From assembly GCF_003704095.1 (NCBI RefSeq), contig NW_020844463.1:186001-250000 (forward strand): a DNA stretch of 64,000 nt. Reading direction: 5' to 3'. The position numbers and the translations under genes were made by a program. The notes under the pieces were generated by a model that was given only the letters and a program-made list of their open reading frames with translations, ran no database searches and had not been told where the DNA came from. This document shows, one piece after another, positions 4,830 through 62,779 of this stretch (positions within the stretch are counted from its first letter, which is position 1; each line of letters opens with the position of its first letter). This stretch comes from Pocillopora damicornis. Its lineage: Eukaryota.

Positions 4830-4950
4830 TGAGAGACAAATATTGTATTTATCTCTATGTATGTGCGTTTTTTTCTGGTTCGTGACATCTCGGAAGAATA
4901 GGTAGGATTCAAACATTTGACCTTCCGATCGATACTTCGAATCTTCTATT
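4830..4950 (-). mobile_element. Degenerate tRNA-derived SINE head
   Basis: Minus strand reads AGCTCAGTAATAGAAG...GAAGGTCAAATGTTTGAATCC (A-box/B-box-like). A related copy lies at ~16950-17040. Confidence 0.45.
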
Positions 4951-18746: not shown

Positions 18747-18930
18747 ATAGTAACGCGTACAGAAACAATTTGATTATTATCAAAGTTATACAAATTAGGT
18801 ATGATTGAATACACGAACTGAAAAAAATTGAAACGACCAGCAACTGTGCTCTAACCTAGACGACAAGGCGAAGCCTACAGTTAACATTACTTTATTCCTG
18901 CCCAACGACTTATTTCAAAGACTCTTCCTT
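18747..18930 (+). repeat. ~185-bp dispersed direct repeat (copies at 21421-21604 and, diverged, ~46440-46525)
   Basis: ATAGTAACGCGTACAGAAAC...CCCAACGACTTATTTCAAAGACTCTTCCTT is nearly identical in the first two copies. Confidence 0.85.
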
Positions 18931-21900
18931 AGATGCGAAACCAAATGAAATACTTATATATATGTAAATTAGCTTTTCTGGTTCCAAAAATATATGTAAA
19001 AACTATAAAATTTCAGTCACAACTGAAGTCAAGAAAACATGCACACTATTCTGAAAGAGGTCTGGCAACAACTCCCTCTTGATTGTCAAATTCGTCTGGC
19101 TGCACATATCAACTCGTTGTTGCCTGCACTAGACCTGTTTGGGGACTTACTACCAATTACTTTCATTTTAAGATCAACTACACTGTATTAGCTACACAAT
19201 AAATATATGTTTCTAACATTTACATATTTCTTATAAATATTTCTATATTTTCATATATTCTTAGTGCATTATAGCATGGCAGGGGATCTGTTTCTTTCCG
19301 CAGTCACATCGCTGTTCTTATTTGAATTAATGTAGTACCTTTTTTGTGTTAAGAGCCTGTCCACGAGAGCGCCAGACAGTCGTGCTACATGCCATCTCAC
19401 CGATTTCAATAAAACAATTATTGCTCTAGGCGGTCGCTTAACCAAATAAACCTACATTTTTTTGCTCTTTATACAAGATGACTAATGAAGAAAGGTAAAA
19501 AATATGAAAAACTTTCGATATTTTTTGTAAGAATGGAAAATTTCACGTTTAGAGAGATGCATGTAGGCGAAAAATCGATGGGAAAATCGTAGCGTTTCTT
19601 TTTTCTGTCGTTTATTAATTTGGAGATTTGCTAAAATCAAAAAATATGGCTTTGGTACGACACAAAACATTTATCAGTCTATAATTTGATTGTTTATCGT
19701 CATCATTGCTCATTTTAGGAGATTTTAAAGTCACACGCTGCATGTTAGTTGACATTATTACATGTTCCACTACGCTACAACTTCGGCTTTTACAGACGAG
19801 AAATTCAGCGCTCTCGCTTGAGAGCAAATATCAATAGTTCTATCAAACTAAAACTGTGCTTCTATCCCGAAAATAAAATTAAAACAGAGTTGTCGTTGTC
19901 ACTTACCGCCATAAAACATTTCCATCCAGAACTCCGCTAAGCTAACATCTGTTGCGTGACCCAAAGACTCCGTGGGAATTATTTAAGCGCGTTGTTCACG
20001 CTGTCTGCTAGATAACAATTTCAGAATAATCTGCAGATCTCTATGATTATTTGCTTGCTTCGATCGTAAAATATCTTCATTTTTTCTCAAGCATTCTATT
20101 ACTACATATAAATCTACATCTCTCTAGATCAAGTGTTACCGGCGATTAATTGCATGACTTATGAAATTTATTTATTATTATGAGTCAGCAGTAGCAGTAC
20201 CTGTACCCTCTTCTGCAGTCTTCGTCTAAATTTTGCAAGGTGCCTCCTTATCTTCTGCCTTGTTCAGTCAGTTTCGACCTCTGAAGCTAGATCATCGACA
20301 TCGCCCTCTTTGTCCTCATTCATATTGACCCCGTCAATAAACAAATTTTTGTTACGGCAGATAACCGGCTGAAGTATCGAGCGATTTGCTGCTCTATCAA
20401 CCGGTCAGTCTTAGACAACATTCCTGGCCGATGCGTCTCTTAAACTCGATATTTGGGAAGTCACATTAGAGGCGGTTGCCTTATTTGTTTCCTCCCCTGT
20501 CCAGCACACGTCTAAGAGATAATTCTTTGCTTTCTCATATACGAATAGTAAATACAGGCGTGACATTTTTCGAACGTTACATGTACGAGTACGTGATCCG
20601 TTTGAGGATCACAGATTTAGTGTAAATATTTGACCCCTCAGCATCACGTAATTTCTCTAGTTTACAGAGGTCTTAAAACGCTTCTTTGCATGGATTTGCA
20701 TTCTGCGGGTAGAAGGCTAAAAGCGAATTTCTAGGGCGTAATTGCCTTTGATTTCTCAATTGAAGTTGTCGCAAACACAGTTTTTGGGGGTCACGAAACA
20801 ACAAAAACTTATCAGGACCAAGTTTCATGTTCTAATGAGAATAAATAGCAAATAAAAACATGTTCTCTTGAGAAATACAGTTATAGATAACAGATGCTCT
20901 TTAAAACAAATAGTGATAGAAAAGGTTTCTGTTCTGCTCAATTTTGACTTTTCATAGCTTACTTCCAAATCTGAGGGAACGCGTTGAGGGAATAAAAAAA
21001 ACATACACGTGTGATAATTCACGGAAGAGTACATTTCAAGGTTGCTGAATGTCTCTTTTGAATAAGCAGCACGCCAGTGAAAGCTAGTTTCGAGGCATTG
21101 ACTGAACGACAAGTCAGAGACGCCAATAAGAAACAAAAATATTGCTTGTTGAAGGAAAATAGTGGAACCGGAACTGGAACCGGAAACAAATTTTAAAAGT
21201 TCCGATTAAACATCTGCACAGGCTTAGTTAGCAGAGGTAGCTTAGGTACCAAACCTTCTACGTTTTAAGGAGCTATGTTAAGGAGATCTGCGCTGTACCT
21301 TAACACTAATCCTCTCTCCTTTATTTCGGGCGTCCCGTGCGTTATTGCCAAGAAAATTGCCATGCAATTTCAAACATAGAATTAAGCAACAATGTTCTGT
21401 AGACTCATTCAATTGTATTCATAGTAACGCGTACAGAAACTATTTGATTGTTATCAAAGTTATACAAATTAGGTATGATTGAATACACGAACTGAAAAAA
21501 TTGAAACGACCAGTAACCCTGCACTAACCTAGACGACAAGGTGAAGCCTACAGTCAACATTAGTTTTATTCCTGCCCAACGACTTATTTCAAAGACTCTT
21601 CCTTGCCACTTGCGGGCTCTGCCTAGAAACGTTAAGCGGCAATTTGTCAATGTGAGCACGCTACAACAAAGTGGTGCATTGCAGTACTACGAAATGAATT
21701 ACTTATCACTTTTTTGTTTGCAACAAATCTATGAGTAACAAACCACACTAGCATCCTCACTACATGTACATTCATGTTTTCCCCAGCCAAGGAACGAACA
21801 ACAAGGCAACATTGGCTCTCCCCCTTGGCAGTAAACACCATCCATCCTGACTGGGTCAGAACCCTGAACGTCTTCAGTGCAACAACTAGCCCGAGATGCA

Positions 21901-23019
21901 CCAGAAAAGCCACGCTAACGACACACCACACTGGCTTCGTTAATTGTCCAGTGATCATCACACACTGTGCCCCACTCCCCGTTGTGATAAACTTCTGCGC
22001 GTCCTTAGTTTGCTCTACCGCCCATTAAACGGATAGTGACTGTATAATGAACGTAAATAAAATGATTCCTGAGTGAGAGATATAATTAATTGGCCATAGG
22101 ATACCTCTGAGACAAGAAACTTTGAGACCTTCATATTTAATTCTGCTTGCAAAAAAAAATAAGAATTGGGACCTTTTGCTGTTCCTGTTTGCTATAAAGG
22201 ACTTCAGTAATTTACCTGTGCAGGACTGGTGACCATTACTGAAATATCCGGGCGAATATCTACATTCATATGAACCAATTCTATTGACACACTGAGCGTT
22301 CGAATTGTAGGAGATAGATCCCGTCTGACACTTATCCACATCTGTTAAAGCAGTATGGGAACCCGTCAGAGTTAAAGCTATATTTTCAAAATCGATTAAA
22401 TTTTGAAAATATTAAGTAATATGACCGTGTGGAATACAATTCGGTTTGTAATCATACGGGCAATTGACAAAACCGGACGACCGCGAAGCACACACTGACA
22501 ACGAAATGAGCCTTCAGTATTCTGACAATTGGCATTCGGATCACAGGCGGGAATGGAAGAACTACATTCGTCAACATCTGCAAAGAAATCAAATTGTCAG
22601 TAGTGGAGTTTCGATTGATCATTTTTACTGCTTGTAACTGTACAAGGAAATATAAGGAGAAGTGACAGGAGACCTATTCAATCTCGCTGGTGTTATTTTT
22701 TATCACTTGGGCGCACTTTGTTATATCGAAACACTCTTCGTGAAGGATGGTCAAATCAAAACTAGACAACTAAGATAAGTTTTCAATGCCAACGTAAAAT
22801 ACATGCCTGAATTACTTCGCCTTTACCTAATAACCGACAGCATACTAAAAACAATACATGCTTTCTTAAAACTGCAAGTTTTCTAATAATAACTTCCTGA
22901 CATTCGGCAAGTTCGTAAGAAAATTATCAACTGTCTTTCACTTTTATACCTCAAAATTGTCTCACTTTAATTCGAATTGATATAACCACAATCCACATAC
23001 AGTACTATGCAAAAGTAAT

Positions 23020-23345
23020 GCAAACGATTATCGTTATTTATCGCGATAAAAGCGAGATATCGGCGATATGTAAGCGATATTTCCGTTGGAATGATATATC
23101 GGCAATATACCGCCGGGCTATTGTTCTAACCGTGAGATATCGCCGATATATCGTTGAGCTCCTCACGAATTATCGTTTTCCCTGAGCGATATATCGTTTA
23201 TCCTGAACGATATATCGTTTGAACTCAGCGATATATCGTTTGAGCTCAGCGATATATCTTTTGAGCTCAGCGATATATCGCCGCCGCCTAACAATATCTC
23301 GTTTAAACTAAGCGACATATCGTCGTGTCGGTAAGATATCGCCAT
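23020..23345. repeat. Subterminal array of CGATATATCG palindromes (21-bp period); matching array at ~31720-32035
   Basis: Units such as CTCAGCGATATATCGTTTGAG repeated in tandem; these produce the spurious DISLSS ORF. Confidence 0.85.
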
Positions 23346-23849
23346 TATTAAGTGTTAGATCGGTGAGGCAACATTGCGCCACTCGGCGAATTTTTCATCA
23401 ACCTGATACTGTCTGAGCGAGTAGGAAAGTAAACCTAGTGTATCATTCTATTCGAAGTCTGTTTCATCAGCGTGAAAAGGGCAGTATAAGGAATTTATGC
23501 CAGTTTCGCTACATACAGAGTCGGCTATGGTCGAAGTTTGCCACACGTTCGCTGCACATCACTTAAGCAAGTTCGCTACTACACAAAATAACACAAAATA
23601 ACATTTAACACTTATATAGCGCTTATTCGCATGCGTTCTAAGCGCTTTACATCCATTGTATTACAGTATGACTTAGAAATANNNNNNNNNNNNNNNNNNN
23701 NNNNNNNNNNNNNNNNNNNNNNNNNNNNNNNNNNNNNNNNNNNNNNNNNNNNNNNNNNNNNNNNNNNNNNNNNNNNNNNNNAAAAAAAATACAACCAAAA
23801 AAAAGCAGAGGTAATGAAGGTCAAGGTCAGAGAATGGACTTTTCCAACT

Positions 23850-24500
23850 GCTGTATCCAAGGAAAGTAAAAGTAGGCTGGCAAACAGGAAGCAGTACTTG
23901 ATGGTTCATAAGCCAAAGGGAGCAGTCTACTTGAACCTCAGCATTTGTTGGAAAACTCGTTACACAACATCAGCCCAAATGTCAAGTACTACTTAACACA
24001 TGGCTACTGCATACCCCAGGAAAGAACCAACAATGTGCCTTACCAACCGTGGGTATGCCTAAAGAAAGGCAATGGAGGTATTGTCACTAACAAGTGTTTT
24101 TGTGTAGCTGGGTGAGGGCATTTCATCTGTACTGCCATTGTGTGCAAATTGATTGTGATAGTTAACCTCTTTTATAGTGAGTAACATTTTGGCTTTGATA
24201 AATTTTGGTTACAGCTGACAATGTTTTGAACAAAGGATTAGCTACTTTTATAAACCATTTCTGTCAATTGTCACCCTGAACACTCTTAAGACCACAGGCT
24301 TAGCTGCATTTTGCAAGCTTGGGGAGATTTGCAAACACATGAGTGCCCTTCTTTACTACATTACTTCAGAGATCAGGGAAGAAAGAAACAAGAGTTGTAA
24401 ATCCAAATTCCAAGCATGGAGTAGACCAAGTAAGGGTGCATTCAAGAAATATACAGCTAAGCCCCTAGCGGTAATTAGGATGCAAAAGGCTACATCAAGG
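23850..24500 (+). pseudogene. Intron-containing SWIM zinc-finger gene remnant, transposon-associated type (YqaJ/ISL2EU-like second ORF)
   Basis: HNISPNVKYYLTHGYCIPQERTNNVPYQPWVCLKKGNGGIVTNKCFCVAG|GTGAG...LGEICKHMSALLYY...SCKSKFQAWSRP gives CxC..CxH. The acceptor looks mutated and there are upstream stops. Confidence 0.62.
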
Positions 24501-25122
24501 ACTGTGATGCTTTTCAACTGAAAAGGGGTAACACACTTCAGGTCATGCTAAGATCCTTGATGTTTAGCAGACAGCCAATGAAACTTAATCAAGAAGATAT
24601 CCAGACACTGAATATTACTTCCAACAGGAATTGTTATTTGTTATTTCATTACAATAACCCATGGCCAATCATGACAAGTCTAAACTTTGTTACACATGAA
24701 GAAGTAATTGCCAGTGAAGCAGCAGTTGTATTCCCAGAGTGTTATAGCACTAACTGATGACATCAAAATGAAATATTTCAATCTTTCATTGGAAGGAAAA
24801 TATTCTCTGTTTCTGCAGGAACTAATACAGATCATCACTACAAAACCACACAAAACAAAAGGATTAACATTGACTTTCTGAAGGTGTTATGCATGTGACA
24901 TGGTTTGTCTAAAATGAGGAAACTATCACACATTATCTACACCTATGACATTTAACACACTTTATTCTTCAAATTATAAATTGTGATTACTAGAATACAA
25001 ATTGCTAAACAATTTAACAACAAATAATTTTGTAAAGCAGTTAACTCTTTACTCGCGAGAGAAGCCAAGTATCCGCCATTTGAAGAGTTCTGCCGATTTC
25101 TGAAGACGGAAGCAAGGATTGC

Positions 25123-37402: not shown

Positions 37403-38938
37403 CGCCCAAGGTTTCCCATTGGCATTTGGATCACAGACGTGGACGGAAGAACTGCATTCGTCAACGTCTGCAAATAAATCAAATAGTCAGTGGTGGAACT
37501 CCGATTGATAATTTTTGCTGCCTGTAACTCTAAAAGGAAACATACCAAAATCTTTAACACCAAATACTCTTTACAGAAGAGGTTAAAAGGGAGAAGTGAC
37601 AAGAGACCTGTCCAATATCTGTGGTGTCATTTTTCAACACTTGGGCGCACTTGGTTATATCGAAACAATTTCGTGGAAGGATGTTCAAATTTGTTGGAAC
37701 AGCACAATTCAAAACTACACACTTCAGTGCATAAAGGCCTTGGCGACAATACGGGAAAAGTACTTAAGGACAAATAATGCAAATGCTATTTTTCAAGCAA
37801 TTGTTTATGTAAATGTTTTTCACTCAATCACGTTTTACATTCAAAAGTGAAATTATTTTAGTAAGCGAATACAACCTAAATATAAATTTCTAAATGGTTG
37901 ACAGTGTAAAACACCGATGAATATAGGAATACATGCCATTTTCCGCACGATAATCGAACGGTAAATACAAGAAAATGCGTGGGAATAACCGCATTCAGGT
38001 GGTGAACCGCCGCTAACAACGCGTTTTCTCAACGCAAACAGCTGCAAACGCTAGAAAACATTGTATTTCAATTTGTTAACCAACCCGTGAACGTTGGACG
38101 ACACTTGGTTTTCAAGCGTTATCTACGCATTTACTGTCCTAGAAAATGGAAGAAACGCATTGTCTTCAACGGAAAACGTCTGTGAAAACAATGTTTTGTT
38201 ACTGAGAAAACACCAGTAAACAACGGAATACAAACTGTTTTCCCGTCTGTTAACCGTACTCTTAACACTAAGAAAACAATCGTTTTCATAGAGTTCACTG
38301 TGGAGGAAAACTGCTGGATAATGGAACGAATACTCCAATTTGCCGACTCGAAAACAACGGGAGAAAGTTGGATTTTCTTTTCGGAAAATGTCAGAAAATG
38401 GGTGAATAATGCTGCGTTTTCAAATATTCACAACTTGTTTTCCGAACGGGTGAACACCACTTTTTTTGCAGTGTCAGGTATAATGGAGTAAACCCAGAAT
38501 CTGGCACTGACGGCTTACCCTCCTTCACTTGTCTTAATCTCTTTACACGTTTCAGCCGGAGGTTCACTTATATCACTTATCATTCCATAATATAATTATT
38601 CTTAATTCTTCATTTTCTCTTTTCTTCTTTTAGCATTAAGATATTACCTCTCTTCGAGTCTTTTTTAGTACAAAATCCTCTTCTCTGGCCTCCTTAGAAC
38701 GGTTGCCCAACTCGCAAATGTCTTCGGTGACGACGTAGTTGCAACTTTGGCATATGATATCTTGGTAACATTCCCGTAAACACACATCACCGAGATCCGC
38801 TTTTGGGATCTTTTTGAAGATGTGTCCTTGCAGCATCATACCCAGGATCGACACCTCTCCTTTGGCGTTGCTGTGTTGAGAATTTGCATCTAAGAATGTT
38901 GGACTTACAACCATTAGCAGTAGCAGAGTGAGGGCCAT
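37403..38938 (-). pseudogene. Gene D: deleted duplicate of gene E (SP-PAN exon, partial exon 2, internally deleted cbEGF)
   Basis: 38648-38938 closely matches 52402-52714 but has a 3' deletion. ~38490-38570 ELPAETCKEIKTSEGG* has a stop and no acceptor. 37403-37467 DVDECSSSVHVCDPNAN is truncated. Confidence 0.8.
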
Positions 38939-40740
38939 CTTGCTCCACTCAGCAGCTTGATGACCCCTGATGGCGATAAAAGTATCAGTAGATTCGGCTA
39001 ATGGAAAAATTTGCCAGGTCGCTTAGACTTAGTGAAAGGAGGCGACAAGATCGTTTAAGGATTTATTTATTGTTTGCGAAAAATTTAGGGGGCGCTAATA
39101 GCTGTCTACAGCCATATGAAACAATCCTATCCCATGTTGAAATGAATAAACGACCCTCAGGAAACCGCAACGATGACGTGGCCAAACAAAAGATCTACTT
39201 CACAGAACAATATCTCTGCATGTGCGTTTTTAGCTTTGTACATTTCAAAGCCCTCTGAAAAACAACTATGTGAATTCATGACATTTGCGTGGTCTGAGAA
39301 ACAAAACACCGAGGGTGATTTAATGTAATTTCCATTATTATTTTGATAGTGAACAATATTTCCATGCATTATGCTGAAGTTGAGATTTGCCATCTTGATA
39401 GACAGTTGACGCATCTAGCCATTCGCTAAAAGTATAAAGTTAATTCTAAGATCAAACCACGTCTTTCTCGGCGTTACGGTACTCACACCGTAAGGTCCCT
39501 CTAAACGAATTTAACCCTCCCTGAAGTGTACTTAAAGAAGGAAACAAAAAAAAAAAACCAAAACAATTATCGTTTCCAAAGTCGACGTAAGTGGAACAAT
39601 ATACATATAACATCCTTATTCTAGCTTACTCCCGTCGATGCAAAAAAAAAATGTTCACCCAGAGCTTAACCCTCTTTCAAAACATTGATTTTAAATAAGA
39701 TAAATTAAATAGAGCGTGAGTAAAATTTGACAAACATCTAAAGCGATTTCTTTAAATAGCATGGATTTACATTCCGTTTAAGCCGAAAGGTTTTACTAAC
39801 GAACTACTGCAAAAACAGGCTCACCAGAGACAAATGTCTTCTCACCAGAAGAACTGCTTCTTTCTTTTGCTACACGCTCTTACCAGATATGAATTATGTC
39901 TTGAGCACCGACAAGCTGGTCTAAAAGTTGTATTTCCAAAGGGTTTGGGTAAACAAGCGTTGCTTAAGCTATTTACGCAGTTTTTGACGATGTTGCGCAG
40001 CCAAACAGTAAATATAATAGTATGAATCCGAAGAGGAATGCTCTAGTTCCTTCTCCATGTGGATATATGAACCACAAATACTATAATAAAAGTAAAAACG
40101 TGAAGACCAGTATATCGATAAATAGGAAAACTTTTGAGCTGTGGTCCATCTTTCGGGAGAATATTACCTTTAGTGTTTTGCTGAGCTTAGCATACATTTA
40201 AACTTCTCATATTGCATTTGTTTTGTGTAAGTTAAGGAAATAAGAGATGTTTAAAAGTTGGACACCTGGAACTATCACTTTAACATTGATCATAATTTTT
40301 CTTTCTGCTCTCTCGCGAGGAAAATACTTCTTCAAAATTTGAAGCCTGAGGTTATGAGGCAAAGTCCACTTCTTAAATAACGTTATTTACAACACCTTTT
40401 TATAAGATGAAACAAAAGCAAACTTGACTTATTTTTGTCATTAAGATAGTCTGGTTTTATTTATTGGTTAGTTAATATAAATTGGTCTCCATAAAGAGTT
40501 TTAAAGCTGACGTTTCGAGCGTTACCTCTTCTTCCTTATCATTCCTTCTACAATTTGTTTTTTAATTATTTCTTCCACCTAACCGCAAATTAAAATAAAT
40601 ATGCTGCTCAGATGGTGACTGTAATAAAACTTAAAACATCAATCTCCAACTTAAGAACCACCCTTACGTTTTAACAGCAATAAACCGAAAATACGATAAC
40701 AAAAAGAGATATATGTAGATCCTTATAGAGATAAATAGCA
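38490..40740 (+). repeat. Segmental duplication of gene E exons 1-2 plus ~2 kb upstream (partner ~52200-54980; partial third copy ~60310-61050)
   Basis: Collinear non-coding matches such as ATGACATTTGCGTGGTCTGAGAA, GTAAGGTCCCTCT, AAAAGTTGGACACC and TTTCTTCCACCTAACCGCAAAT. Confidence 0.85.
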
Positions 40741-41170
40741 ATANNNNNNNNNNNNNNNNNNNNNNNNNNNNNNNNNNNNNNNNNNNNNNNNNNNNNNNNN
40801 NNNNNNNNNNNNNNNNNNNNNNNNNNNNNNNNNNNNNNNNNNNTCACCACCTGAATGCGGTTATTCCCACGCATTTTCTTGTATTTACCGTTCGATTGTC
40901 GTGCGGAAAATGGCAATATGGAAAAATTATGTAACCTGTATCTCAAAGAATTGTAGTCTTATTCAACAACAAAAAGCCTAAAAACAAAAAAACCATGACA
41001 AGAAAGTAATTAGTTAAGGAGAAATGGCATGAAATGGCAACTCTATACCCTATATGGGGAGAGTAGGGTCAATACTTTAAAAGTAATACTTAGATTCTTC
41101 ATCTGTCCACAAATCCATTTACTTTTTTTCTCAGCGGGCATGGTGACGCATCCTGCAATCTGATTGGCTT

Positions 41171-42122
41171 GGATTCCGATGGCGTAAAGAAAATAAGATA
41201 AAACATAAGAAAGCATTAGAATTAATGTAAGTAGGTATGAATTATATTTTGGGTGCGACACAGTTATTTCAGCCCGAGCCGCTGGGTGAGAGTCAAATGG
41301 ATAAAGACGACCGAAAACTAACAATTGAAGGATATTAACTTGATAAAATCGACCCTCTTACAGAGAAAACCTAGGGCCCACTGATTTCGTAAAACCATAG
41401 TTTGGGTTAGACCTCGTGTTAATTACCGGCCCTATTGGTGTATTATAAGATATTTTGCCACGTATAAATGGATGTCAGTCAGTGCATGACTCTTCCTCCT
41501 TGAAAGGCGTGATTAATCAGGGGAAGGCGTCTCGAATATCACGGGAAAAAATCGCTCTTTAATTTGCCATGTACAGAAGCTTAAGACAAATAGGACTCGA
41601 ATTCGTCCATAGGAAAATCTTACTGTCTCAGTTCACGTGTCATGAGTCATACGCAGTTTGTTTCGTGGGTAAGTTGTTGCATGTCGCGACTGAAAAGTTT
41701 GTGTGAAATAACAATGCGATCGTCCCTATTCTTGCTTAGTGCGGTTAAGCAAAGCGTAATATACTCGGGAAAGGTGGCAGCTAGGTAGCGCTATAGAAGC
41801 CAAAAAAATAACAAAATAAATTATTCTGGTTTCAGATGAAATTTGGCTGTTAAGGAAGGCTTTGACTTTTCGACAAGCCTTGTAATCCAACCTTTATAAA
41901 CCTGTGGAAAAGTGCGACTGTTCTATAGATAGATAACCGTTAAAAAAACGAGCATGACAAGCGAGTGTTAGTAATTTTTTCCACAACCGGATTCCGACGG
42001 CGTAAAGAAAACAAAATAAAATTGAAAAAGTAATAGAGTTAATGTTGGCAGGTATGAATTATCTTTTGGGCGCGACACAGAGTCATTTCAGCCCGAGCCG
42101 CTGGGCGAGAGTTAAAAGGATA
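41171..42122 (+). repeat. Pair of ~130-bp direct repeats (41171-41303, 41989-42122)
   Basis: GGATTCCGA.GGCGTAAAGAAAA...GGTATGAATTAT...GCGACACAG..ATTTCAGCCCGAGCCGCTGGG.GAGAGT. Confidence 0.75.
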
Positions 42123-42488
42123 TTTTTTCCGAATGACTTAACACTGTGTTACAATTATTATTAAATTGTTATCACTTTGAAGGGCATTGAGAAAAAAAAA
42201 GAAAAAACTGGAAAGTGACAACAAAAATGACAATAAAACAGTGGGAACAATCACGCAAACAAGCTAGCGATCTGTAATACATTTTAGCCCGCTAAAAAAA
42301 TGTAGCCCAAGAAATGCGCCACGATGCCCGGCGGCTATGCCCATTAAAGGCGTAAAAGGTGCATAAGTCGAAACGCTCGCAACAGAACCTGCTACCAGGC
42401 TAAACAGACGGCGGTAGGAGGTCTTATAGACGGCGGTAAACCCTTTTGGGAAACGAGACGATATAAACCAAAAACTGAAAACTACATG

Positions 42489-42856
42489 AAGAATTAGATA
42501 TATGAAAATTCACATATTTGCACTGCGGTGGAAAGATGAAATTAGAAGATCCTCGCAGCTTAGAACACTACTGAAACTAGTAGTTGTAAGTAGGATCTGA
42601 AAAAAATTTCAGGCCCGTACCGCAGTGCAAATATGTGAATTTTCATATATCTAAATCTTCATTCACTCGGATGTTTATTTGTACCCAATTCATTGACCAG
42701 CTCCCAGTTGGCTTGTTAGCTCAATTGGTAGAGCGCTGCACCGGTATCGCAGAGGTCATGGGTTCAAATCCCGTACGGGCCTGAAATTTTTTTCAGGTCC
42801 TACTTACAACTACTAGTTTCAGTAGTGTTCTTAGCTGCGAGGATCTTCTAATTTCA
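42489..42856. mobile_element. tRNA-derived SINE-like insertion with internal inversion and 13-bp TSD
   Basis: TSD TGAAAACTACATG at 42476-42488 and 42857-42869. tRNA-like head at 42710-42782 (TAGCTCAATTGGTAGAGC...GGTTCAAATCC). 42489-42620 is an inverted copy of the body and tail. Confidence 0.82.
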
Positions 42857-42869
42857 TGAAAACTACATG

Positions 42870-43130
42870 TTATCATTAATCATTAACCTGTCGCGTGTAT
42901 CCATTCTTTTGTAATCTCTTGTTTTGACTATTATTGGTGGCGGTCTTTTGTTCTTAAGCCGAATAGTCGCATATATTAAGTTATGATCCGATATCCCCAA
43001 AGGGGATACACCTGTAGCGCTGACAAGATCTTTTCTTGTGGTTACAATAAGATCAATTAAGGAGCTTGATGTTATTGTTTGTCTTGTGGCTTCTTGTATG
43101 ACGTTCTCCATATTAAACATCTCGAAAATG
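42870..43130 (-). mobile_element. LINE APE-endonuclease C-terminal fragment
   Basis: ATRQTITSSSLIDLIVT...GISDHNLIY...KTRDYK. Confidence 0.78.
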
Positions 43131-43231
43131 GNNNNNNNNNNNNNNNNNNNNNNNNNNNNNNNNNNNNNNNNNNNNNNNNNNNNNNNNNNNNNNNNNNNNN
43201 NNNNNNNNNNNNNNNNNNNNNNNNNNNNNNN

Positions 43232-44484
43232 GGAGTGCCTCAGGGTTCTGTTCTAGGCCCACTGCTTTTTTTGTTATATATCAATGACATACAGGAATCA
43301 TCAGATAAGCTTAGTTTTACCTTTTTGCGGATGACACAAATATCCTTTGCTGATAAAAATCTGAAATCGTTGGAACTCTGCGTAAATCAAGAGCTTAACA
43401 AAGCATATGATTAGTGAACTGCAAACAAATTGACCTTGAATATTTAAAAAAGTAACTTCGTCATGTTTTGCCCTGCCCAAAGGAAACTTTCCTATCAACC
43501 TAAAATCGTGATATTTGATAACAAACAAAACAAGAAGGTGGCTCTAAAGCATAGAGGTTATGTCATATATCTCGGGATTTTAATTGATAAAAATTTGTCT
43601 TGGAAACACCATATTGACCATGTAATCATTAAAGTAAGCAGAACCGTACGATCAATCGCAGAATTACGACACTTTCCGCCAACGCATACCCTCTTAAATA
43701 TATACCAAGCTCTTATAGCTCCTTACTTAACATACGGTCTGACAGCATGGGGTCAGGCTTGTAAATCTTACCTTGACAAGCTCCTAAAGTTGCAGAAATG
43801 AGCTCTTCGCTTTAACTACTTTTCTGATCATAATGAGCATGCAATTCCTTTATTTGTTGACGTTCATATCTTACCGCTAAAATTTGTTTATTATGAATCT
43901 ATTGCTAATTTGATGTTTGACGTTCGAAACAGAACAGCTTCATCCAATATTGAAGACCTATTTCAAGATCTATCTAATGTTCATTCTTACAATACACGTT
44001 CTTCTGCCTCTAATAACTTCTATACCAAACCTTCTAGGCTATCCGTTCAAGCGAATTCCTACTCTCGAATAGGAGTAAAAGTGTGGAATGCAATACCTCA
44101 AGCATTAAGAAATCTTTCTAAAAATGCGTTTAAAAGAAAACTCAAACGAATTTTATTCAACATATTAGGTTCACAAGACTCTAATATAGATTTATCTGAG
44201 ATTATATAAAATGTAAATTCCTGGTAATAATTCTCCTGATCTATCCTGACTATTTTTATAAACAGTAGCTGTACCTTTTATATTTTAAATTAGGTCAATG
44301 TAACGGTTTTTCTTGTTGTTATTCAATACTGTCTCTTTCCCTTCTCTTTTATCAGTTAATTTCTAGGGTCTTTTTTTGCAATTCGGCTATTGAGGCATGG
44401 CCCGCCTAGATTAGTCTTTGCTAGTTGCGGGCATGCCCTTTTCTGTAAAATTTAATTGGAAATCAATAAAGTGTGTATGTGTGT
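43232..44484 (+). mobile_element. LINE (L2/CR1-like) RT 3' fragment with 3' UTR
   Basis: GVPQGSVLGPLLFLLYINDI, frameshifted FADDT, YLGILIDKNLSWKHHI, HSYNTR, KVWN. Ends AATAAA plus a (GT)n-like tail; several stops. Confidence 0.9.
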
Positions 44485-45362
44485 TCAGTTTCAAAAGCTA
44501 TAAATCCAGTTCAAATATTTCAACAAGATTAAGTGCCTTCTGTGCTCGAGTCTTTAGTTCTTTTAATTTTATGTGTGTGATTGTTTGGTTTTGAGGTCTA
44601 GAATTTCAGTTCCTCTGTGAATCCCCAGGCTTTTAATTCTGTTACCTGTAAATGTACTTAGTAAGTTGTTGATTTTCACCGTTCAGTTTTCTTAAACTTT
44701 CCTTTTCTCTGACATATTCTATTCTAATCTCTGAAATCTTTAACCAGTTTCTCCTTTTCATTCCTCAAGATTTTGATATTTTGCTCTCCAGATACATATT
44801 TCTTTCTCTGCTTTTTCAAGTTTTGACTGAATGGCATGCAGATCTGCTCCCTACTTCTCTACCCAGGTCACATCATTTTTCAAAATAACCAGCTTACGCA
44901 ATTTTTCCTCATGCCCCTTTCTGTTTTTACAATTTCCTTTTCTGTTCAGAGTCTGATTTGTGATTGAAGCGGTTTGAAAGTCGGCCTTCAATTCGATCAC
45001 TCTCTCAACTGATCTTAAACGCATGGCCAGGGATGATTCCATTTAGCATGTCAATGTATGCAAGGCCTGGGGTGTCTTTTTTCAATTTTCTTTTTGCAAT
45101 TTTGCCATTGCATTAGTGCGGCATTCTTGACCGCCAGCCAGAATAGGACTTCATTACCACCTTCACTTTGTTTTGTCACATATTTTAACTGAGCTGCTGG
45201 TGGACCGCAAATATATATGAGGGGGTCACGGACCGGGTGACGATCAGACACTTTTCATTATTGTTTTGATTTTTTTTCCCGCGCGAAACCAAAACAAAAA
45301 ATTCTTAAATTTCTCCAAAAGGGCATCTTATACCGAGCCCCCAGCCTCGTGATCACCCCCTG
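44485..45362 (-). mobile_element. Degenerate coiled-coil ORF remnant, possibly the 5' end of a DNA transposon cut by the LINE
   Basis: Stop-riddled reading ...KLEKAEKEICIWRAKYQNLEE...KLKELKTRAQKALNLVEIFELDL; putative terminus CAGGGGG at 45362. Confidence 0.3.
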
Positions 45363-47639
45363 TAGTTACCAGTCTTTTATCTGTCATTGAGCCGTAGGTA
45401 TTAAAATAGCTATCGTTTTTGCACAGCATTTAGTGCGAAGAAGAGAGACGTTCAGTACTGTTATTTCAGCGCGATCGAAGGAAGATTACTGTTCGTAGAT
45501 GCGTTCATATTTGCTGAAAGTAGGCAAAAAAAAGCGGCAATATTTTTAGGGTTTGCAAAGTTCTTTTTGCCGTAAACGTGGAATGACATCTTTGAACTTA
45601 AACAATTTGATTGGGATGGATCGATACCAGTAAGGGATTTCGGCTGAGTTAAGATTCGGGAAATGATATTTACGAAGGTAGACGCCATTTTCCGTATTGT
45701 AATGGGAATAAAACGTTGTAAGTTATAACGGAAAAAACCGCAACGACTGTTTCATTTACCAAAACACTGTAATTCTGTAATGAAAGTACTGATGAGTATC
45801 ATTCAAACTGGCATTGGGATGGCGGGGTTACGTCCATGATACGAATTTTATTAACTGGTTTTAAATGAATCCCATACTAAGCTTTGTATTCTTCAGCGAG
45901 TTTTTAAACTCTTCTAAGACTCTAAGTCTTGCGGTCTATTGCGCACGCGCGATTCGGAATTTCTGGCCATGATTGGCTCATTACGTGGAAAACCCTGTTA
46001 TTACGTATGCTACGCCGCAACGTATCATATCCTTAGACAAGTCTGTGATTTAATTCTTCTCGTTGGTCAGCTAATTACTATAATTCCAGAGGTCTGTGAA
46101 GACGGTATTTTTATTATAGTGTCAAAAATAACTCTTGCCTAATAGCAATGCCTTATTACTACCAGTGATATGTAATTTGAGTATGATTGAATAGGCCTGC
46201 CTAGACGAAAAATAAAAAAAATTTTCATTTCAAAACCTACACATTTAATAACTTGTACTATATATTTTCAAATGCTTCGATAGTATTACGTTTTACAGTA
46301 GTATCGCCTTATAAGCACAAGGCTTGTTAAGTTTCTCGTACATCACCCCGCATAAAGGTGTCTGCCAAGAAAAAGCTATGTATTTCAAATATGGAATTAC
46401 GCAAAAAATGGTCCAAAGTCATATTTAATTTTTTTTCATTGTAACACCAACATGTACAGCAATTATATTCTATTACTATCAAAGGTATATAAATTGGTCA
46501 TGATTGAATACACGCTCTGAAAAAAGTACCTTAACGGCACAAGGCCTTAGACTTGCTGCTATCAAATACATTTGACTTCCATAGATGGCAAAACTAACTG
46601 TCATTCACTTACATTAATGTGAATTAACCATTCTAGCTCCAGTTACATGTGTACAAATTATTAAGTTTTCATTCAAAGGCAAGAATAATAAGGCTAATTT
46701 TCATGAACACAAACGATTGCTGATCATGTTACCATTAGGAGGTCTATGGCAACCCCTCCTTGTTGCTTATTAAATTCGTCTATCTAAATGTATTATCTCG
46801 CTATTTCCAGCACTGAGTCCTCTTGGAGACTTACTTATCATTACGTAAATCAAATAATAGCGTTGCCTGTACCGAACCTTCTACCAATACTGCTCTTACA
46901 CAATACACCTTTTATCGCAAATTTGCTGCGAAAACTACTACTAACGCTACGTTACACGAGATTATTTTTAAAGAGACAGTCTTGCCAAATTTAAGCCTCC
47001 TAAAGCTCTCATGTTTAACAAGCTCTTGTTTGTTAAACACTATGATAATTGTTATCATCATCATTTCTATCTTTCATATCATCTTTTTTTTTTTTGCTTT
47101 CGATCCTTAGGTCTTATACGAAATATGCTCCGCAGAATAACTAGAAGGGCTTTGTTTTCCATTTTTTTTTTCGGGTGCACGTGCCAAAAAAATTCCATAA
47201 AAGGCGGAAAAAAAAGATGTACGTCTACAGCGGTGTCGCTAATGTGTTTAAACAATAGAAAAATGAGATGATTGTTCAAAATACGCCACGGATAATGATT
47301 ACCGAAATTATTGGTAAACCTTAACTGCCCTAAAATATTTTAATATGTTGTATTCGGTAATTATCTCATTGTGGCGAGTGTACCAAATACGTAAACAGTG
47401 CCTCTCACACGTGCTAATTGGCTGGTTCGGATGTAATTGACAAGTACTGTTTGCCTCCAAGCATGATTGTTGATCTTGCAAATATTCGTCATCTTGCGTT
47501 GCTAATTTTTGAACCGAGATCAAAAACTAGCAACGTGTCAATATGACAATGCTACAATAAGGTCGTGAGATCAATGCCACGAAATAACTTGTTACAAAAA
47601 AAATTGTTTTAAGGAAATTTTTTTTTCTTTGCGACCAGT

Positions 47640-47965
47640 CTAGTTATTGCACGCCACACTGGCATCCTCACTATGTACACAGTTATGTTTTTCCCAGCCA
47701 GGGAACGCACATCGAGATAACATTGCCTCTCCCCCTTGGCAGTAGACATCATCCATCCAGACTGGGTCAGAACCCTGACCGTATTTAGCGCAACAACTAG
47801 CCTGAGATGCACTAGAGAAGCCGAGCTGACGACAAACCACATTGGCTTCGTTAATTGTCCAGTGATCATCACACACTGTGCCCCACTTCCCGTTGTGATA
47901 AACCTCTACACGGCCGTAGTTTGCTCCACCGCCCATTAAACGGATAGGAGCGTCCTCATTAGTGG
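47640..47965 (-). CDS. Gene E terminal SRCR exon
   Basis: IRLMGGGANYGRVEVYHNGKWGTVCDDHW...ASCCAKYGQGSDPVWMDDVYC...SEDASVACNN*. Confidence 0.9.
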
Positions 47966-50900
47966 CTGTGTGATCAACATACTACTGACTAAGTATTGGA
48001 GGTACCTGAGATCAAACTGGCCTCAGCTGTGCTTGAATCATTTAAATTAGGTTTTAAATCATCCGAGGAACGGTCTCGGGAGTGCTGTGGAAATCATGCT
48101 TAACCCTTTAACTCCCAAGATCTTATTGTCAATTCTCCCCTGGTGGTAGATGAGAATAACAAAAACCTGCCTGCTACGTTCGAGGAGAGCAATAACAAAT
48201 AACATTGGCAAAAAGTAAAAGTTATCACCGAGAAGCAATGAAAGAAGTAACCATGGAGAAGACTTGGTTGAAAATATATTAAAATATCAAAATTCCAAAA
48301 TACATACAGTGTGAGAGAAATAAGGACATTTCGCCAAAACGAGCCCCTTTAGCAGTTTAGAAGTTTTCTTGCTATTGTTTTTGTAGTTGCTGCTGTTTTT
48401 AACTGCACTTACGTCGTTTTCAATAATTTTATAACACGAGCTGAGGTCGCTTACAGTGTTCAGAGATTGTACCAATTAAAATAAACTGAGAAGCAGAATG
48501 TCGCGGCAATAGGTCTTCCCTACCCAAAAATAATGTAGAAGACAAGAGGAGGAAGCGTAAGGATATAAAGGAAGAAGGATCCATCAACTGGATACTAAAA
48601 AATCAAAGCAATAACGAACAGGTGTGCTATAATAGGATTATAAGCCCTCTTAAATGGGTTTTTAGTCAATCAGAAATAACCTCCTAGCAATTCATCTAAT
48701 TTCCTTAGAAGTTTTTTTCAACTATACCTATTTCTTCTTCTTAGCTAAAGAGTGCCACTATAACACAATATATTAACTGGCCTAGGATTGAGACCATTGC
48801 ATCATCTACCTGGCAACCAAATGTGCCTTAAATAGCCTTACCTGTGCAAGATTTCCCATCACCAGAGAATCCACTCACACACTGACAGTGAAATGAGCCT
48901 TCAGTATTCTGACAATTGGCATTTGGATCACAGACGGGTATGGAAGAGCTGCATTCGTCAACATCTACAAAAATCAAATGGACAGTAGTGGAACTCCGAT
49001 TAATGACTTTTACTGCTTGTAACTCTAAAAGGAAGCATAGGAAGAAGTGACAAGAGACCTGTTAAATATCGGTGGTACTATTTTTTAACACCTGGAATAA
49101 CACAATTTAAAATTTTCCCCCCTCAACTCTCCCTCCTATACACCCTTAAATCTCTTGTTAATTCGATTTTCTGAAATTGATTCTTTCCGCCCTTAACTCT
49201 AAAAGGAAACAGAGCGAGAACTCCGCAAGAAAATTACTCTTTGAAGCTAAGCTTAAGGGATTTGAGTAACAGACTACCTGGTCATGCTGGTTGGTGTTAT
49301 ATGTTAACCAACTATAAAGAAATACGGACGCATATGGTTATATCCAACCACTCTTTCTTGGATGGATGTTAATATTCCTTGAATAACAAAGTTCGAAATC
49401 CCCATCCTACACATCCTCCGTAAGTCTCTTAATGATTCGATTTTCTAAAACTGCACTTCTACCTATTTATTGGTTCCCTTAGAGAGGAATCGGAGAGTAA
49501 GGAATCTACTTCAAAAACATAACACACTTACATGACTAAGGCCCAAACATCTGCGCGTACCATGCAACCACCAAAACTGCCTTAAAAAATAGCCTTACCG
49601 ATGCAAGATTTCCCATCACCAGAGAATCCACTCACACACTGACAATGAAATGTGCCTTTCGCATTCTGACAATTGGCCTTTGGATCACAGACGGGGGCGG
49701 AAGAGCTGCATTCGTCAACATCTGCAAAGAAATTAAACAATCAGTAGTGGAGCTCCGATTGATGACTTTTACTGCTTGTAACTCTAAAAGGAAACACAGG
49801 TAGAAGTGACAAGAGACCTGTTCAATATCGGCGATGTTATTTTTCAACATATGGACGCACTTTGTTACATCGCAACACATTTCGTGAAAGGGTGTTCAAA
49901 TTTGTTGGAACAACACCATTCAAAACTTTCAATGCCAAAGTAAAGTGCATGTCTGAAATACTTCGTCTATACCTAATAACCGACAGCATACTAAAAACAA
50001 TATATACTTTCATTAAACTGCAAGTTTTCTGATAAGAAATAAGTCACTTCTTGAAGGTAGGGCTGAAAGGGATATCTGACAAGTGACCTGGTTATGCTGG
50101 TTGGGGCGTTTCGTGCCCAGTCACTTTGTACCCGGCTTTGTCGATTCGCACTCAGTTGGTTGAGTCACTTTGTACCCAAACTAATCAAGTAGATTGTTCA
50201 TGCTTATATGTTAAACGATAAGAATAAACAGAAATAAACGAATTTACAACCGTCTATAACAAAGAGATAAAAGTCTCACTTTCGCTGGCTCTTATTTTGT
50301 TTTATATTTTATTACTTATAAAGTATTACTTTTATTTTATTGTTTTTATATATTTTTTTAAATAAACGAATTTACAACCGTTTATAACAAAGGGATAAAA
50401 GTGTCACTTTCGCTGGCTCTTATTTTGTTTTATTTCCACCTTCCTTCAGTCTCTTTTTTATTCTATTTTCTAAGAGTGTGCTGGTAACTATTTGTGTTCT
50501 CATTATCTCAAGAGAGGGACCAAAGAGTAAAGTGTCTAGCCCCAAAATACAGCACACTCACAAGACTAAGGCCAAAACCTCGGCGTTCATCAAGTTACCA
50601 CCCTATCTCTCAAGAATATCCTTACCGGAGCAAGATTTCCCGTCAGCAGAAAATCCAGTCTCATCTCATTTCCTTACAAGTTTTTTTCAACTCTACTTAT
50701 TTCTTCATCTTGGCTAGAGTGCCANNNNNNNNNNNNNNNNNNNNNNNNNNNNNNNNNNNNNNNNNNNNNNNNNNNNNNNNNNNNNNNNNNNNNNNNNNNN
50801 NNNNNNNNNNNNNNNNNNNNNNNNATCACCAGAGAATCCACTCACACACTGACAATAAAATGTGCCTTCCGTATTCTGACAATTGGCCTTTGGATCACAG

Positions 50901-52714
50901 ACGGGGGTGGAAGAACTGCATTCGTCAACATCTGCAAAGAGATTAAATAGTCAGTAGTGGAGCTCCTATTGATGTTTATTACTGTTTGTAACTAAAAAAA
51001 AAGGAAACACAGGGAGAAGTGACAAGACTCCTGTTCAATATCGATGGTGTTATTTTTCAACACCTGCGTACACTTTGTGACATCGAAACACCTTTCGTAA
51101 AAAGATGTTCAAATTTTTTGGAACAACACCATTCAAAACTTAACAACTAAGATAAGTTTTTAATGCCAAAGTAAAATGCATCTCTAAAACACTTCAGCAA
51201 TAGCTAATAGTCGACAGCATACTAAAAACAATACATACTTTCATGAAACTTTAAGTTTTCTGATAATAAATTAATCACTCCTTTGGTTGAGAGGGATAAC
51301 TGACAAATGACCTGATTCTGCTGGTTTGTGTTATATTTTAACCCGTTACCAGCCTTCTTATACCAGGGACGTTTCATTCAAAGCCCAGTCGCTTTGTATC
51401 CGGCTTAGTTGATTCGCACCCAGTTGGTTGAGTTGTTTTGTGCCCAAACTAATCAAGTAGATTGTTCATGTTAATATGTTAAATGATAAGAATAAACAGA
51501 AAAAAACGAATTTACAACCGTTTATAACAAAGGGAGAAAAGTCTCACTTTCGCTGGCTCTTATTTTGTTTTATTTCCACCCTCCGTCAATCTCTTTTTAA
51601 TTTTATTTCCTAACAGTGTACTGGTAACTATTTGTGTCCCCTTATCTCAAGAAAGGGACCAAAAATTAAAGTGTCTATATCCAAAACATAACACACTTAT
51701 AAGACTAAGGCCAAAACCTCGGCGTTCATCAAGTTATCACCCTAACTCTCAACAATATCCTTACCGGAGCAAGATTTCCCGTCACCAAAGAATCCAGTCA
51801 AACACTGACAACGATATGAGCCTTCTGTGTTCTGACAATTGGCCTTTGGATCACAGTCAAAGATGGAAGAACTGCATTCGTCAACATCTNNNNNNNNNNN
51901 NNNNNNNNNNNNNNNNNNNNNNNNNNNNNNNNNNNNNNNNNNNNNNNNNNNNNNNNNNNNNNNNNNNNNNNNNNNNNNNNNNNNNNNNNGTTTGTGTAAA
52001 TATTTATAACTCAATCGCATTTTACATTCCAAACTGAAATGATCTTAGGGCCAGTAATGATTGTCTACATTTTTTAATGTGGAGTTTTCTCTGAGAGGAT
52101 AAAGGCAAAAAACTTAAACATCGATTTTCATGATGAATTAAGGTACCTTCTGTTTTCATGTCGCAGTAAGCGAATACAATCTTTTCAGGTATGATGGAGA
52201 AAATCCAGTATCTCGCACTGACCGCTTGCCCTCCTTCACTTGTTTTAATCTCTTTACACGTTTCAGCCGGAAGTTCTGGAACGGACCCGAGAGGCACTGA
52301 AAAACAACGGATTGTTTCTTGTTTACATATATCACTTATCATTCCGTAATACATTCTTAATTCTTGATTTTCTTTTTTCTAATTTAACATTAAGGTCTCA
52401 CCTCTCTTCATGTCTTTTCTGAAATAATATCGTTCAAAGTTTGGTACAAAATCTTCTGGTCTGGCTTCCTTAGTACGGTTGCTCAATTCGCAAATGTCTT
52501 CGGTAAAGACGTAGTTAAAACTCTGGCATCTGATGTCTTGGTAACATTCCCGTAAACACACATCACCGAAAGCCGCTTTTGTGATATTCTTGAAGATGTG
52601 TCCTTGCAGCATCATACCCAAGATCGACACCTCTCCTTTTGCGCTGCTATGTTGAGAACTTGCATCTAAGAATATTGGACTTACAACGATCAGCACTAGC
52701 AGAGTAAGGGCCAT
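47640..52714 (-). CDS. Gene E: secreted SP-PAN-fibrinogen/COLFI-like N-subdomain-cbEGF x4 or more-SRCR protein (uromodulin/DMBT1-like)
   Basis: Exons 52402-52714, 52147-52296, 51765-51887, (gap) 50825-50931, 49599-49721, 48842-48964, 47640-47965. Phase-1 GT/AG sites and open frames; two assembly gaps inside. Confidence 0.82.
48780..51889 (-). repeat. Tandem exon+intron repeat array (123-bp cbEGF exon within ~0.75-1.2-kb units)
   Basis: Repeated DVDECSSS..CDP.ANCQN..G exons whose introns also match each other and match 22560-22900, 32320-32530 and 37020-37730. Confidence 0.88.
52402..52714 (-). CDS. Gene E exon 1: signal peptide plus PAN/apple domain
   Basis: MALTLLVLIVVSPIFL...GMMLQGHIFK...CLRECYQDIRCQSFNY...CELSNRTKEARPEDF; donor GTGAG. 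Confidence 0.88.
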
Positions 52715-62511: not shown

Positions 62512-62700
62512 CTAATTGTTACAAACCACGCCAGTATTCTCAGTATGTTGACGGTTTTCGATTTCCCGCCCAAAGAACGTACAGAGAAATAATATTGCAT
62601 CTCCCGCTTGGCAGTAGTCTTCATCCACTTAGAATGGGTCAGACCCCTGACCTTATTTAGCACAATAACTAGCCTTGGTTGCACCAAAAAGGCAACTAGC
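62512..62700 (-). pseudogene. Gene F: degenerate terminal SRCR exon fragment
   Basis: GATKASYCAK*GQGSDPF*VDEDYCQAG...TGVVCNN*; homologous to 47640-47820, including the 3' flank. Confidence 0.8.
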
Positions 62701-62779
62701 AAGGTTTGCCCCTTGGAAATCCCAGAAACCTTTGAGCAAACACGGGAATCTGATTACTTGCAAATCATTCATAACACCT

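What the first reader, a model, noticed from the sequence alone, without database searches (positions are those of the whole stretch)
21729..52714. Exon shuffling in progress: different N-terminal heads on a shared cbEGF-SRCR tail
Seen: gene C (separate signal exon, one PAN type, EGF) and gene E (fused signal-PAN exon of another type, fibrinogen-like subdomain) have dissimilar 5' halves. They share similar cbEGF exons, the surrounding intron sequence and the terminal SRCR exon. The terminal SRCRs of B, E and F end C-x-N-stop (C-Y-S-stop in C), and the head-to-tail junctions are phase 1. Inference: recombination through the repeated EGF-intron unit swaps heads, generating a birth-and-death repertoire of secreted receptors.
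Basis: partly seen in the sequence, partly recalled or inferred. Interest (0 to 1): 0.7.

Follow-up and report, generated by a model that had tools for sequence, protein, structure and literature searches.

The report
Old head-tail swaps in coral genes
In a coral gene cluster for secreted PAN-EGF-SRCR proteins, near-identical front ends sit on different back ends and unrelated front ends share back-end pieces, a readable record of exon shuffling that is likely older than the split of Pocillopora species, and the swapped gene flagged here is broken.

Summary
The mosaic is real, but it is an old record, not shuffling caught in progress. E (PAN-B head, four cbEGF, SRCR) has open exons and spliced cbEGF-SRCR RNA. 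C (PAN-A/EGF head) is a pseudogene: frameshifted signal exon, three in-frame stops, truncated cbEGF, 9-kb transposon holding both gaps. C's head abuts E-type EGF intron without a gap. A paralogue 95 kb away (C') carries the same scar, then switches to the tail of a lectin-headed neighbour (G). E's head is 94% identical to a head on a CUB-CUB-SRCR tail in other Pocillopora records (E2). Head and SRCR trees conflict (p-AU 0.00015 and 0.0004). All 31 pattern-matched cbEGF exons are phase 1-1. The proteins are soluble, not membrane receptors. This is classical phase 1-1 exon shuffling with birth and death, unusually legible at DNA level.

The parts
52402..52714 (-). Gene E exon 1: signal-like N-terminus fused to PAN type B; ends in phase 1
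   Evidence: identical to database protein P0164
52147..52296 (-). Gene E exon 2: 150-nt phase 1-1 exon, weak match to the N-terminal subdomain of COLFI/fibrinogen-like domains
   Evidence: E=0.073 here; 0.001-0.18 in four paralogues; all below cut-off
48842..51887 (-). Gene E array of four cbEGF exon + intron units (units 85-88% identical), with a gap at 50725-50824; the gap 51890-51989 lies just before it. RNA joints suggest more units or another order
47640..47965 (-). Gene E terminal SRCR exon ('CC' type), ends CNN-stop; 3' flank covered by RNA contigs down to 46411
37022..38938 (-). Gene D: dead paralogue of the E head (shortened PAN end, stop at 38517, insertion in exon 2, cut cbEGF at 37468-37418), followed by unit intron that abuts the C block at 37022/37023
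   Evidence: junction bridged in 4 of 4 DNA runs
34402..34521 (-). Gene C signal exon, 120 nt, out of frame with an in-frame TGA in this assembly
   Evidence: 4 of 4 DNA runs hold contigs with an extra base at 34462, which may be alleles or paralogues
33395..33657 (-). Gene C PAN type A exon (phase 1 in, phase 0 out), open
32607..32721 (-). Gene C EGF exon (phase 0 in, phase 1 out) with in-frame TAA at 32709
   Evidence: the stop is also in run X6 (record 30, no differing letter over 32653-33360)
32546..32589 (.). Fragment of a high-copy dispersed repeat marking the junction between the PAN-A head and E-type intron
32078..32541 (-). E-type EGF-intron scar directly behind the C head, gap-free; shared with paralogue C' (82%)
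22998..32061 (.). Multi-copy DNA element with 48-nt terminal inverted repeats and TA on both sides, with a nested LTR-retrotransposon-like insertion (about 23599-28934); holds gaps 23682-23781 and 28265-28364
   Evidence: (DUF5641); joint 23594-28934 in 4 of 4 DNA runs
22489..22895 (-). E-type intron 3' half plus truncated cbEGF exon of C (82-86% to E units)
22216..22341 (-). Decayed cbEGF exon of the other (G/H) type, absent from E
21729..22039 (-). Gene C terminal SRCR exon, 85% to E, stops at 22007 and 21917
   Evidence: a T>G variant at 22005 removes the first stop in contigs of 4 of 4 DNA runs
62512..62727 (-). F: decayed 3' half of a CC-type SRCR exon

Best explanation
This cluster holds genes built from phase 1-1 exon modules in which near-identical heads sit on different tails and unrelated heads share tail pieces, and the swaps likely arose by rare non-homologous rearrangements inside introns before the Pocillopora species split. 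Shown: the mosaic, the intron phases, two intron junctions, the tree conflict and the decay of C, D and F. Inferred order: (1) the E-type cbEGF-intron unit arose behind a PAN-B head (D, E, E2) and was amplified in tandem; (2) a PAN-A/EGF cassette was joined to such a unit about 30-60 nt after its donor, at a dispersed repeat, giving the ancestor of C and C'; (3) in C' a second break inside that intron exchanged the E-type tail for the cbEGF' tail of the lectin-headed neighbour G; (4) PAN-B heads ended up on two unrelated terminal modules (CC-type SRCR in E; CUB-CUB-SRCR' in E2). Because every module starts and ends in phase 1, any such join keeps the frame. Most products later died. The surviving products would be soluble multidomain binding proteins; a role in microbe or glycan recognition is inferred from the domain families and is untested.
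For: C' (G000:C1098:118399-125899) matches the C head at 83-88% including introns, carries the same E-type scar (82%), then from about 123766 matches G (129080-127153) at 81-82%, with no gap from head to tail. G's intron has no similarity to the E unit (scores 31-44 vs shuffled maxima 41-54). 0 of 4 other EGF-A paralogues carry E-type intron, whereas C and C' do (scores 126-261 vs shuffled maxima 38-56). E and E2 heads are sisters (94% aa, 100/98*), yet the SRCR data reject an E+E2 clade (p-AU 0.00015), and the head data reject E2+P0173, whose SRCRs group together (p-AU 0.00044). E2 is on record from a 28.8-Mb contig and as Logan records (P0204, P0166, P0210, P0212). 31 of 31 pattern-matched cbEGF exons in C1098:30-340 kb are phase 1-1. 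Both head types carry the same six tail classes in database proteins: SRCR, CUB, fibrinogen C, TLD, D8C, glycine-rich. Age: swapped segments are 80-86% identical; the C' protein vs its P. meandrina counterpart 225/229 aa; G000's E2 SRCR vs P. verrucosa 98% aa.
Against: No single molecule in my data spans head to SRCR in C (two gaps, inside the transposon) or in E (two gaps); Logan contigs are short. No listed contig bridges the repeat at 32546-32589. E+C SRCR sisterhood is 93/89 in the protein tree, not starred, and 92/95 with F included in the DNA tree. At 15-20% divergence, later deletions could have erased a homologous crossover site; both junction introns do show deletions. Direction and order of events are unrooted: Stylophora P0024 already has PAN-A-EGF on a CC-type SRCR, though trees reject it as a simple orthologue of C (p-AU 0.02 and 0.039). 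Database gene models from fragmented assemblies can fuse neighbours, so some head-tail combinations may be false. Dating rests on protein identity of two orthologue pairs, not on a clock.
Confidence: 0.75

Rival explanations
1. One reading: heads are being swapped now by homologous recombination through the repeated EGF-intron unit.
For: The unit is repeated four times in E and lies next to heads D, E, C and C'. RNA joints show cbEGF orders not in the assembly: a cb4-like exon followed by cb1 in 3 of 4 runs and cb4 to cb4 in 1 of 4, so unit number may vary or be under-assembled.
Against: A homologous swap needs the unit behind both heads beforehand; 0 of 4 other EGF-A paralogues have it. The C' switch enters an intron with no homology to the unit. 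No swapped segment is near-identical between partners; C vs E pieces are 79-86% alike. The C' architecture is shared with P. meandrina.
Confidence: 0.1
2. C is not a separate gene: D and the 'C tail' are one dead duplicate of E, and the PAN-A block (37023-32570) was inserted into its EGF array. This is a variant route to the same head-on-unit junction.
For: The D-C region is collinear with E (head B, cbEGF, unit intron ... unit intron, cbEGF, SRCR). The block's upstream edge abuts D's unit intron exactly at 37022/37023, bridged in 4 of 4 DNA runs.
Against: The unit pieces on the two sides overlap by about 200 nt in unit coordinates, so a clean insertion does not fit. C' and the C2083 copy carry the same head block without a D head in the aligned upstream region. 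A deletion fusing tandem D and C fits equally well.
Confidence: 0.25
3. Scaffolding artefact: C's head and tail, or E's, were mis-joined across gaps.
For: The assembly has 4393 pieces and 7 gaps in the window. The flanking element is multi-copy. Neighbouring contigs at C1098:92-126 kb look flipped.
Against: The decisive adjacencies are gap-free: C head to E-type intron, C' head to G-type tail, D head to E-type cbEGF, E cb3-cb4 to SRCR. Both C gaps lie in one nested insertion that DNA contigs skip (23594-28934, 4 of 4 runs). C' and E2 recur in other species' records.
Confidence: 0.07
4. No shuffling: a long ancestral gene held all modules and the copies lost different parts, or gene conversion homogenised tails.
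For: Deletions are common here (C2083 lost EGF and half its SRCR; D lost parts). Fused neighbours occur among database models (P0022).
Against: Three unrelated heads (PAN-A, PAN-B, lectin-Kazal) each start with their own first exons, and differential loss does not explain close heads on distant SRCR clades (59% nt E vs E2 SRCR against 94% aa heads). A deletion that fuses neighbours is itself a route of exon shuffling.
Confidence: 0.05

Closest known systems
Exon shuffling of class 1-1 (symmetrical phase 1) extracellular modules (Patthy model; recalled, and cited as diagnostic in passages of PMC5400394)
   Same: Single-exon EGF, CUB and SRCR modules flanked by phase 1 introns, recombined within introns, with tandem amplification.
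   Different: Textbook cases are ancient and inferred from phase alone; here two intron junctions and their donor sequences are still alignable at 80-86%.
Sponge aggregation factor cluster (PMC5400394; passages read)
   Same: Clustered secreted modular genes with an extreme phase 1 bias (154 of 155 introns there; 31 of 31 cbEGF exons here) and species-specific architectures.
   Different: Different domains (Calx-beta, VWA, Wreath); a putative allorecognition role is proposed there, none is shown here.
Cnidarian SRCR repertoire (Neubauer et al., PMC5119243; passages read) and Nematostella trypsin family (10.1101/645952; passages read)
   Same: Cnidarian SRCR proteins with novel domain combinations, including SRCR+CUB; domain trees that conflict, taken as exon shuffling.
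   Different: The passages returned show protein-level architectures; PMC5119243 has no occurrence of 'apple', 'shuffling' or 'fibrinogen', and PAN-headed SRCR proteins and intron breakpoints did not appear in what I saw.
DMBT1-like soluble SRCR proteins (database names of P0204, P0173; function recalled)
   Same: Secreted SRCR, with CUB in E2; a GRVEV-type motif (recalled as the microbe-binding region).
   Different: One SRCR, no ZP domain, PAN head and cbEGF stalk; not a DMBT1 orthologue by architecture.
Repeat-mediated origin of chimeric genes in Drosophila (PMC2211543; search listing and start of abstract only)
   Same: A dispersed repeat marks the PAN-A/E-unit junction and the break in C's cbEGF.
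   Different: Here the repeat is on one side only, so repeat-to-repeat homologous exchange is not shown.

Membership tests
Class 1-1 exon shuffling | Modules coincide with exons flanked by same-phase (1-1) introns | tested here: met
   31 of 31 pattern-matched cbEGF exons; E exon 2 is 1-1, SRCR exons start in phase 1, PAN-A+EGF form a two-exon 1-1 cassette
Class 1-1 exon shuffling | Modules of one gene have conflicting histories | tested here: met
   p-AU 0.00015 (SRCR) and 0.00044 (head)
Class 1-1 exon shuffling | Recombination points lie in introns | tested here: met
   C/C' junction 30-60 nt after the EGF donor; C' switch at about C1098:123768
Homologous (NAHR) head swapping through a shared unit | Both partners carry the unit at the crossover | tested here: not met
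   G intron and 4 of 4 native EGF-A introns score at shuffle level against E units
Ongoing diversification (shuffling in progress) | Near-identical donor and recipient, or combinations that differ between haplotypes | tested here: inconclusive
   Divergence of 14-20% argues against; haplotype-level structure is not visible in short contigs
Birth-and-death multigene family | Tandem paralogues with many pseudogenes | tested here: met
   Of 6 CC-type SRCR copies seen (E, C, F, C1098:250376, C2083, C1088) only E is open; D and C heads are broken
Scavenger receptor (membrane SR-A/SR-I) | Transmembrane segment | tested here: not met
   E's SRCR exon ends in a stop right after the domain; P0164/P0220 end there
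Soluble pattern-recognition protein | Binds microbial or glycan ligands | not testable with these tools
   No binding data; the structure model was uninformative (mean pLDDT 46)

The most novel reading that the evidence does not exclude
Pocilloporid corals run a genome-wide head-by-tail combinatorial system: dozens of PAN-headed secreted genes draw on a common set of terminal effector or binding modules (SRCR, CUB-SRCR, fibrinogen C, TLD, D8C, glycine-rich), new pairings arise at dispersed repeats in phase 1 introns fast enough to differ between species or colonies, and this serves as a germ-line diversification engine for microbe recognition.
Probability: 0.2. Interest if true: 0.7.

Novelty: new member of a known kind. 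Interest (0 to 1): 0.42.

Why it matters
Exon shuffling is usually inferred from intron phase long after the breakpoints have decayed. Here two junctions, their donor genes and reciprocal products lie within about 150 kb and still align, so mechanism (non-homologous join vs unit-mediated crossover) and rate can be tested directly with the long-read Pocillopora and Stylophora genomes. It also points to a large family of coral PAN-headed secreted proteins with interchangeable tails (at least 69 PAN-A-like exon matches in this genome) that my paper searches did not find described. The process itself is established, and the flagged chimera is dead, which caps the interest.

Tried and rejected
Protein search with the E SRCR exon was swamped by multi-SRCR proteins of other animals and gave nothing usable. 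PDB sequence search with E exon 2 found nothing. AlphaFold model of P0164 was low-confidence (mean pLDDT 46, pTM 0.27) and was not searched further. RNA contigs showed no listed splice joint for C's signal or PAN exon, but 17 joints and most pieces were not shown and contigs cannot prove absence; only part of C was in that stretch. No DNA contig among those listed joined 22997 to 32062 (empty site of the whole element); 295 joints were not shown. I first took 'C tail = shared block with E' and dropped it when the pre-SRCR introns failed to align. The DNA tree of E-type units did not resolve where C's unit branches (90/88 at best). I considered C'/G being two haplotypes of one gene and rejected it: 81-82% identity and different heads. 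Paper searches with no hit: 'PAN apple'+'Pocillopora'+'domain architecture'; 'PAN domain'+'coral'+'expanded'+'fibrinogen'+'EGF'; 'exon shuffling'+'lancelet'+'phase 1'+'domain combinations'. Searches gave only general or other-family papers. Subscription journals and supplements were not seen, so an earlier description of this family is not excluded. Earlier scan notes: none near, by words or by sequence; one unrelated note.
Full report
Setting. The window is G000:C1098:186001-250000 of a 234-Mb assembly in 4393 pieces. Gene E's first exon is identical to a database protein labelled Pocillopora damicornis. All genes discussed in the window lie on the minus strand, and the window has seven 100-N gaps.

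Gene E. Exon 1 (52714-52402) fuses a signal-like stretch to a PAN domain; exon 2 (150 nt) weakly resembles the N-terminal subdomain of COLFI/fibrinogen-like domains; four cbEGF exons follow, then a terminal SRCR ending CNN-stop. All junctions are phase 1. RNA contigs cover the SRCR and its 3' flank in runs X16 and X18, join a cbEGF to the SRCR (X16) and exon 2 to a cbEGF (X18). The last joint could come from E2, which has a near-identical exon 2. A cb4-like exon spliced to cb1 appears in 3 of 4 RNA runs, so the array is probably under-assembled or variable. No transmembrane exon follows.

Gene C is dead. Its signal exon is out of frame with a TGA, the EGF exon has a TAA at 32709, the E-type cbEGF is cut at 22489 by a repeat fragment, and the SRCR has stops at 22007 and 21917. 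The EGF stop is also in run X6; the first SRCR stop is polymorphic in 4 of 4 DNA runs. A 9-kb element with inverted ends (22998-32061), a multi-copy family, sits in the head-tail intron. Both gaps fall in an insertion nested within it, which contigs of 4 of 4 DNA runs skip (23594-28934). D is a dead copy of E's head, and F is half an SRCR exon.

What C and E share. They share the 3' half of the EGF intron with the cbEGF exon (82-86%) and the SRCR exon (85%). They do not share the intron before the SRCR, and C has an extra cbEGF of the G/H type. The tail is therefore two shared pieces, not one block. The key adjacency needs no gap: E-type intron begins at 32541, about 65 nt after C's EGF donor, behind a fragment of a high-copy repeat. 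In the genome search with E, this intron stretch matched C, C' and one weaker place elsewhere, so it is not itself a common repeat.

Reciprocal products. C' matches the C head at 83-88% including introns and carries the same E-type scar (82%). At about C1098:123768 it switches to 81-82% identity with G, whose head is a lectin-like/Kazal/C-type-lectin array like gene B's; there is no gap between C' head and these tail exons. G's intron has no similarity to the E unit. Four other EGF-A paralogues lack E-type intron altogether, so the PAN-A head most likely moved onto the unit. On the other side, E's head is 94% identical to the head of E2, which continues with one E-type cbEGF and CUB-CUB-SRCR' and is on record from a 28.8-Mb P. 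verrucosa contig and Logan records.

Trees. Using 18 SRCR rows, E groups with C (93/89) and an E+E2 clade is rejected (p-AU 0.00015). Using 15 PAN-B heads, E+E2 is 100/98* and E2+P0173, whose SRCRs group together, is rejected (p-AU 0.00044). Rows were chosen by me from the fetched cluster and from full-length database hits; single-exon ORFs were left out. The trees are unrooted for these purposes, so they show conflict, not direction. Stylophora P0024 is PAN-A-EGF-SRCR with the same CC-type SRCR, but both trees reject grouping it with C and the C2083 copy (p-AU 0.039, 0.02).

Wider family. Of 43 PAN-A hits, 20 are multidomain by my reading; of 40 PAN-B hits I read 20. Both head types occur with SRCR, CUB, fibrinogen C, TLD, D8C and glycine-rich tails. 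The glycine-rich label for PAN-A tails and the partial fibrinogen tail of P0199 are my reading of the sequence. Some models may be fusions from fragmented assemblies. In C1098:30-340 kb, 31 of 31 cbEGF exons caught by my pattern are phase 1-1.

Age. Swapped segments differ by 14-20%. The C' protein model differs from its P. meandrina counterpart at 4 of 229 residues, and that counterpart already has the G-type tail. The swaps are therefore likely several times older than the species split. This compares intron DNA with protein and is rough.

Mechanism. Shown: mosaic structure, phases, two intron junctions between non-homologous sequences, tree conflict, decay. Inferred: rare non-homologous joins (deletions, duplications or inversions inside the cluster, one at a dispersed repeat) create new head-tail pairs; phase 1 symmetry keeps them in frame; unequal crossover among E-type units changes stalk length; most products die. 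Whether C arose by insertion of the head block into a D gene or by fusion of tandem D and C is open. Function as soluble recognition proteins is inferred from domain families only.

Literature. Phase bias as a sign of exon shuffling and a clustered sponge example: PMC5400394 (passages). Novel SRCR domain combinations in cnidarians: PMC5119243 (passages). Exon shuffling in Nematostella trypsins: 10.1101/645952 (passages). Domain shuffling in coral skeletal proteins: PMC3748352 (title and abstract passage). PMC6208414 (passages) has no occurrence of 'EGF' in its main text. Searches for this PAN family returned nothing; supplements and subscription papers were not seen.

Verdict. A real and unusually legible case of a known process. 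Interest 0.42.

Noticed in passing
window 1942-15224 and C1098:136-188 kb: Tandem B-type genes (three lectin-like exons with no Pfam hit for the two tested, Kazal, C-type lectin, two EGF, CUB, two SRCR); at least five copies in the cluster, some decayed; G carries this head on a nine-cbEGF' and CUB tail.
   Followed up: partly
window 6797-7150 (-): Gene B's last SRCR has an in-frame Tyr/Arg/Trp-rich insertion (a run of tyrosines) absent from its paralogue at C1098:177.4-177.7 kb.
   Followed up: no
window 24219-27848 (+): LTR-retrotransposon-like ORFs (integrase-like ORF with DUF5641; Pao/BEL type by recall) nested in the 9-kb inverted-repeat element; a further very high-copy repeat at about 29300-29650.
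   Followed up: partly
window 43232-44364 and beyond gap 43132-43231: A 2.6-kb transcript contig (runs X16, X20; about 92% identical) maps between D and E and is not part of these genes; unexplained.
   Followed up: no
window 48099-48141: A short, extremely high-copy element in E's last intron ends many unrelated RNA contigs in 4 of 4 runs.
   Followed up: no
G000:C1098:92320-96076 and 109069-125899: Contigs between gaps look flipped or out of order; the head and first CUB of E2 are missing from the assembly although its last CUB and SRCR are present.
   Followed up: partly
G000:C1098:90-108 kb (L011, L012): SRCR exons of E2 and its neighbour H1 are 96% identical, far closer than other pairs, suggesting a recent duplication or gene conversion of this tail.
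   Followed up: no
G000:C1088:25710-26424 (L042, L043): Decayed gene with a PAN-B-type second exon directly followed by a CC-type SRCR, no cbEGF.
   Followed up: partly
window 18745-18930 and 21419-21604: 94% identical 187-nt direct repeat in the 3' flank of C, also related to E's 3' flank.
   Followed up: no
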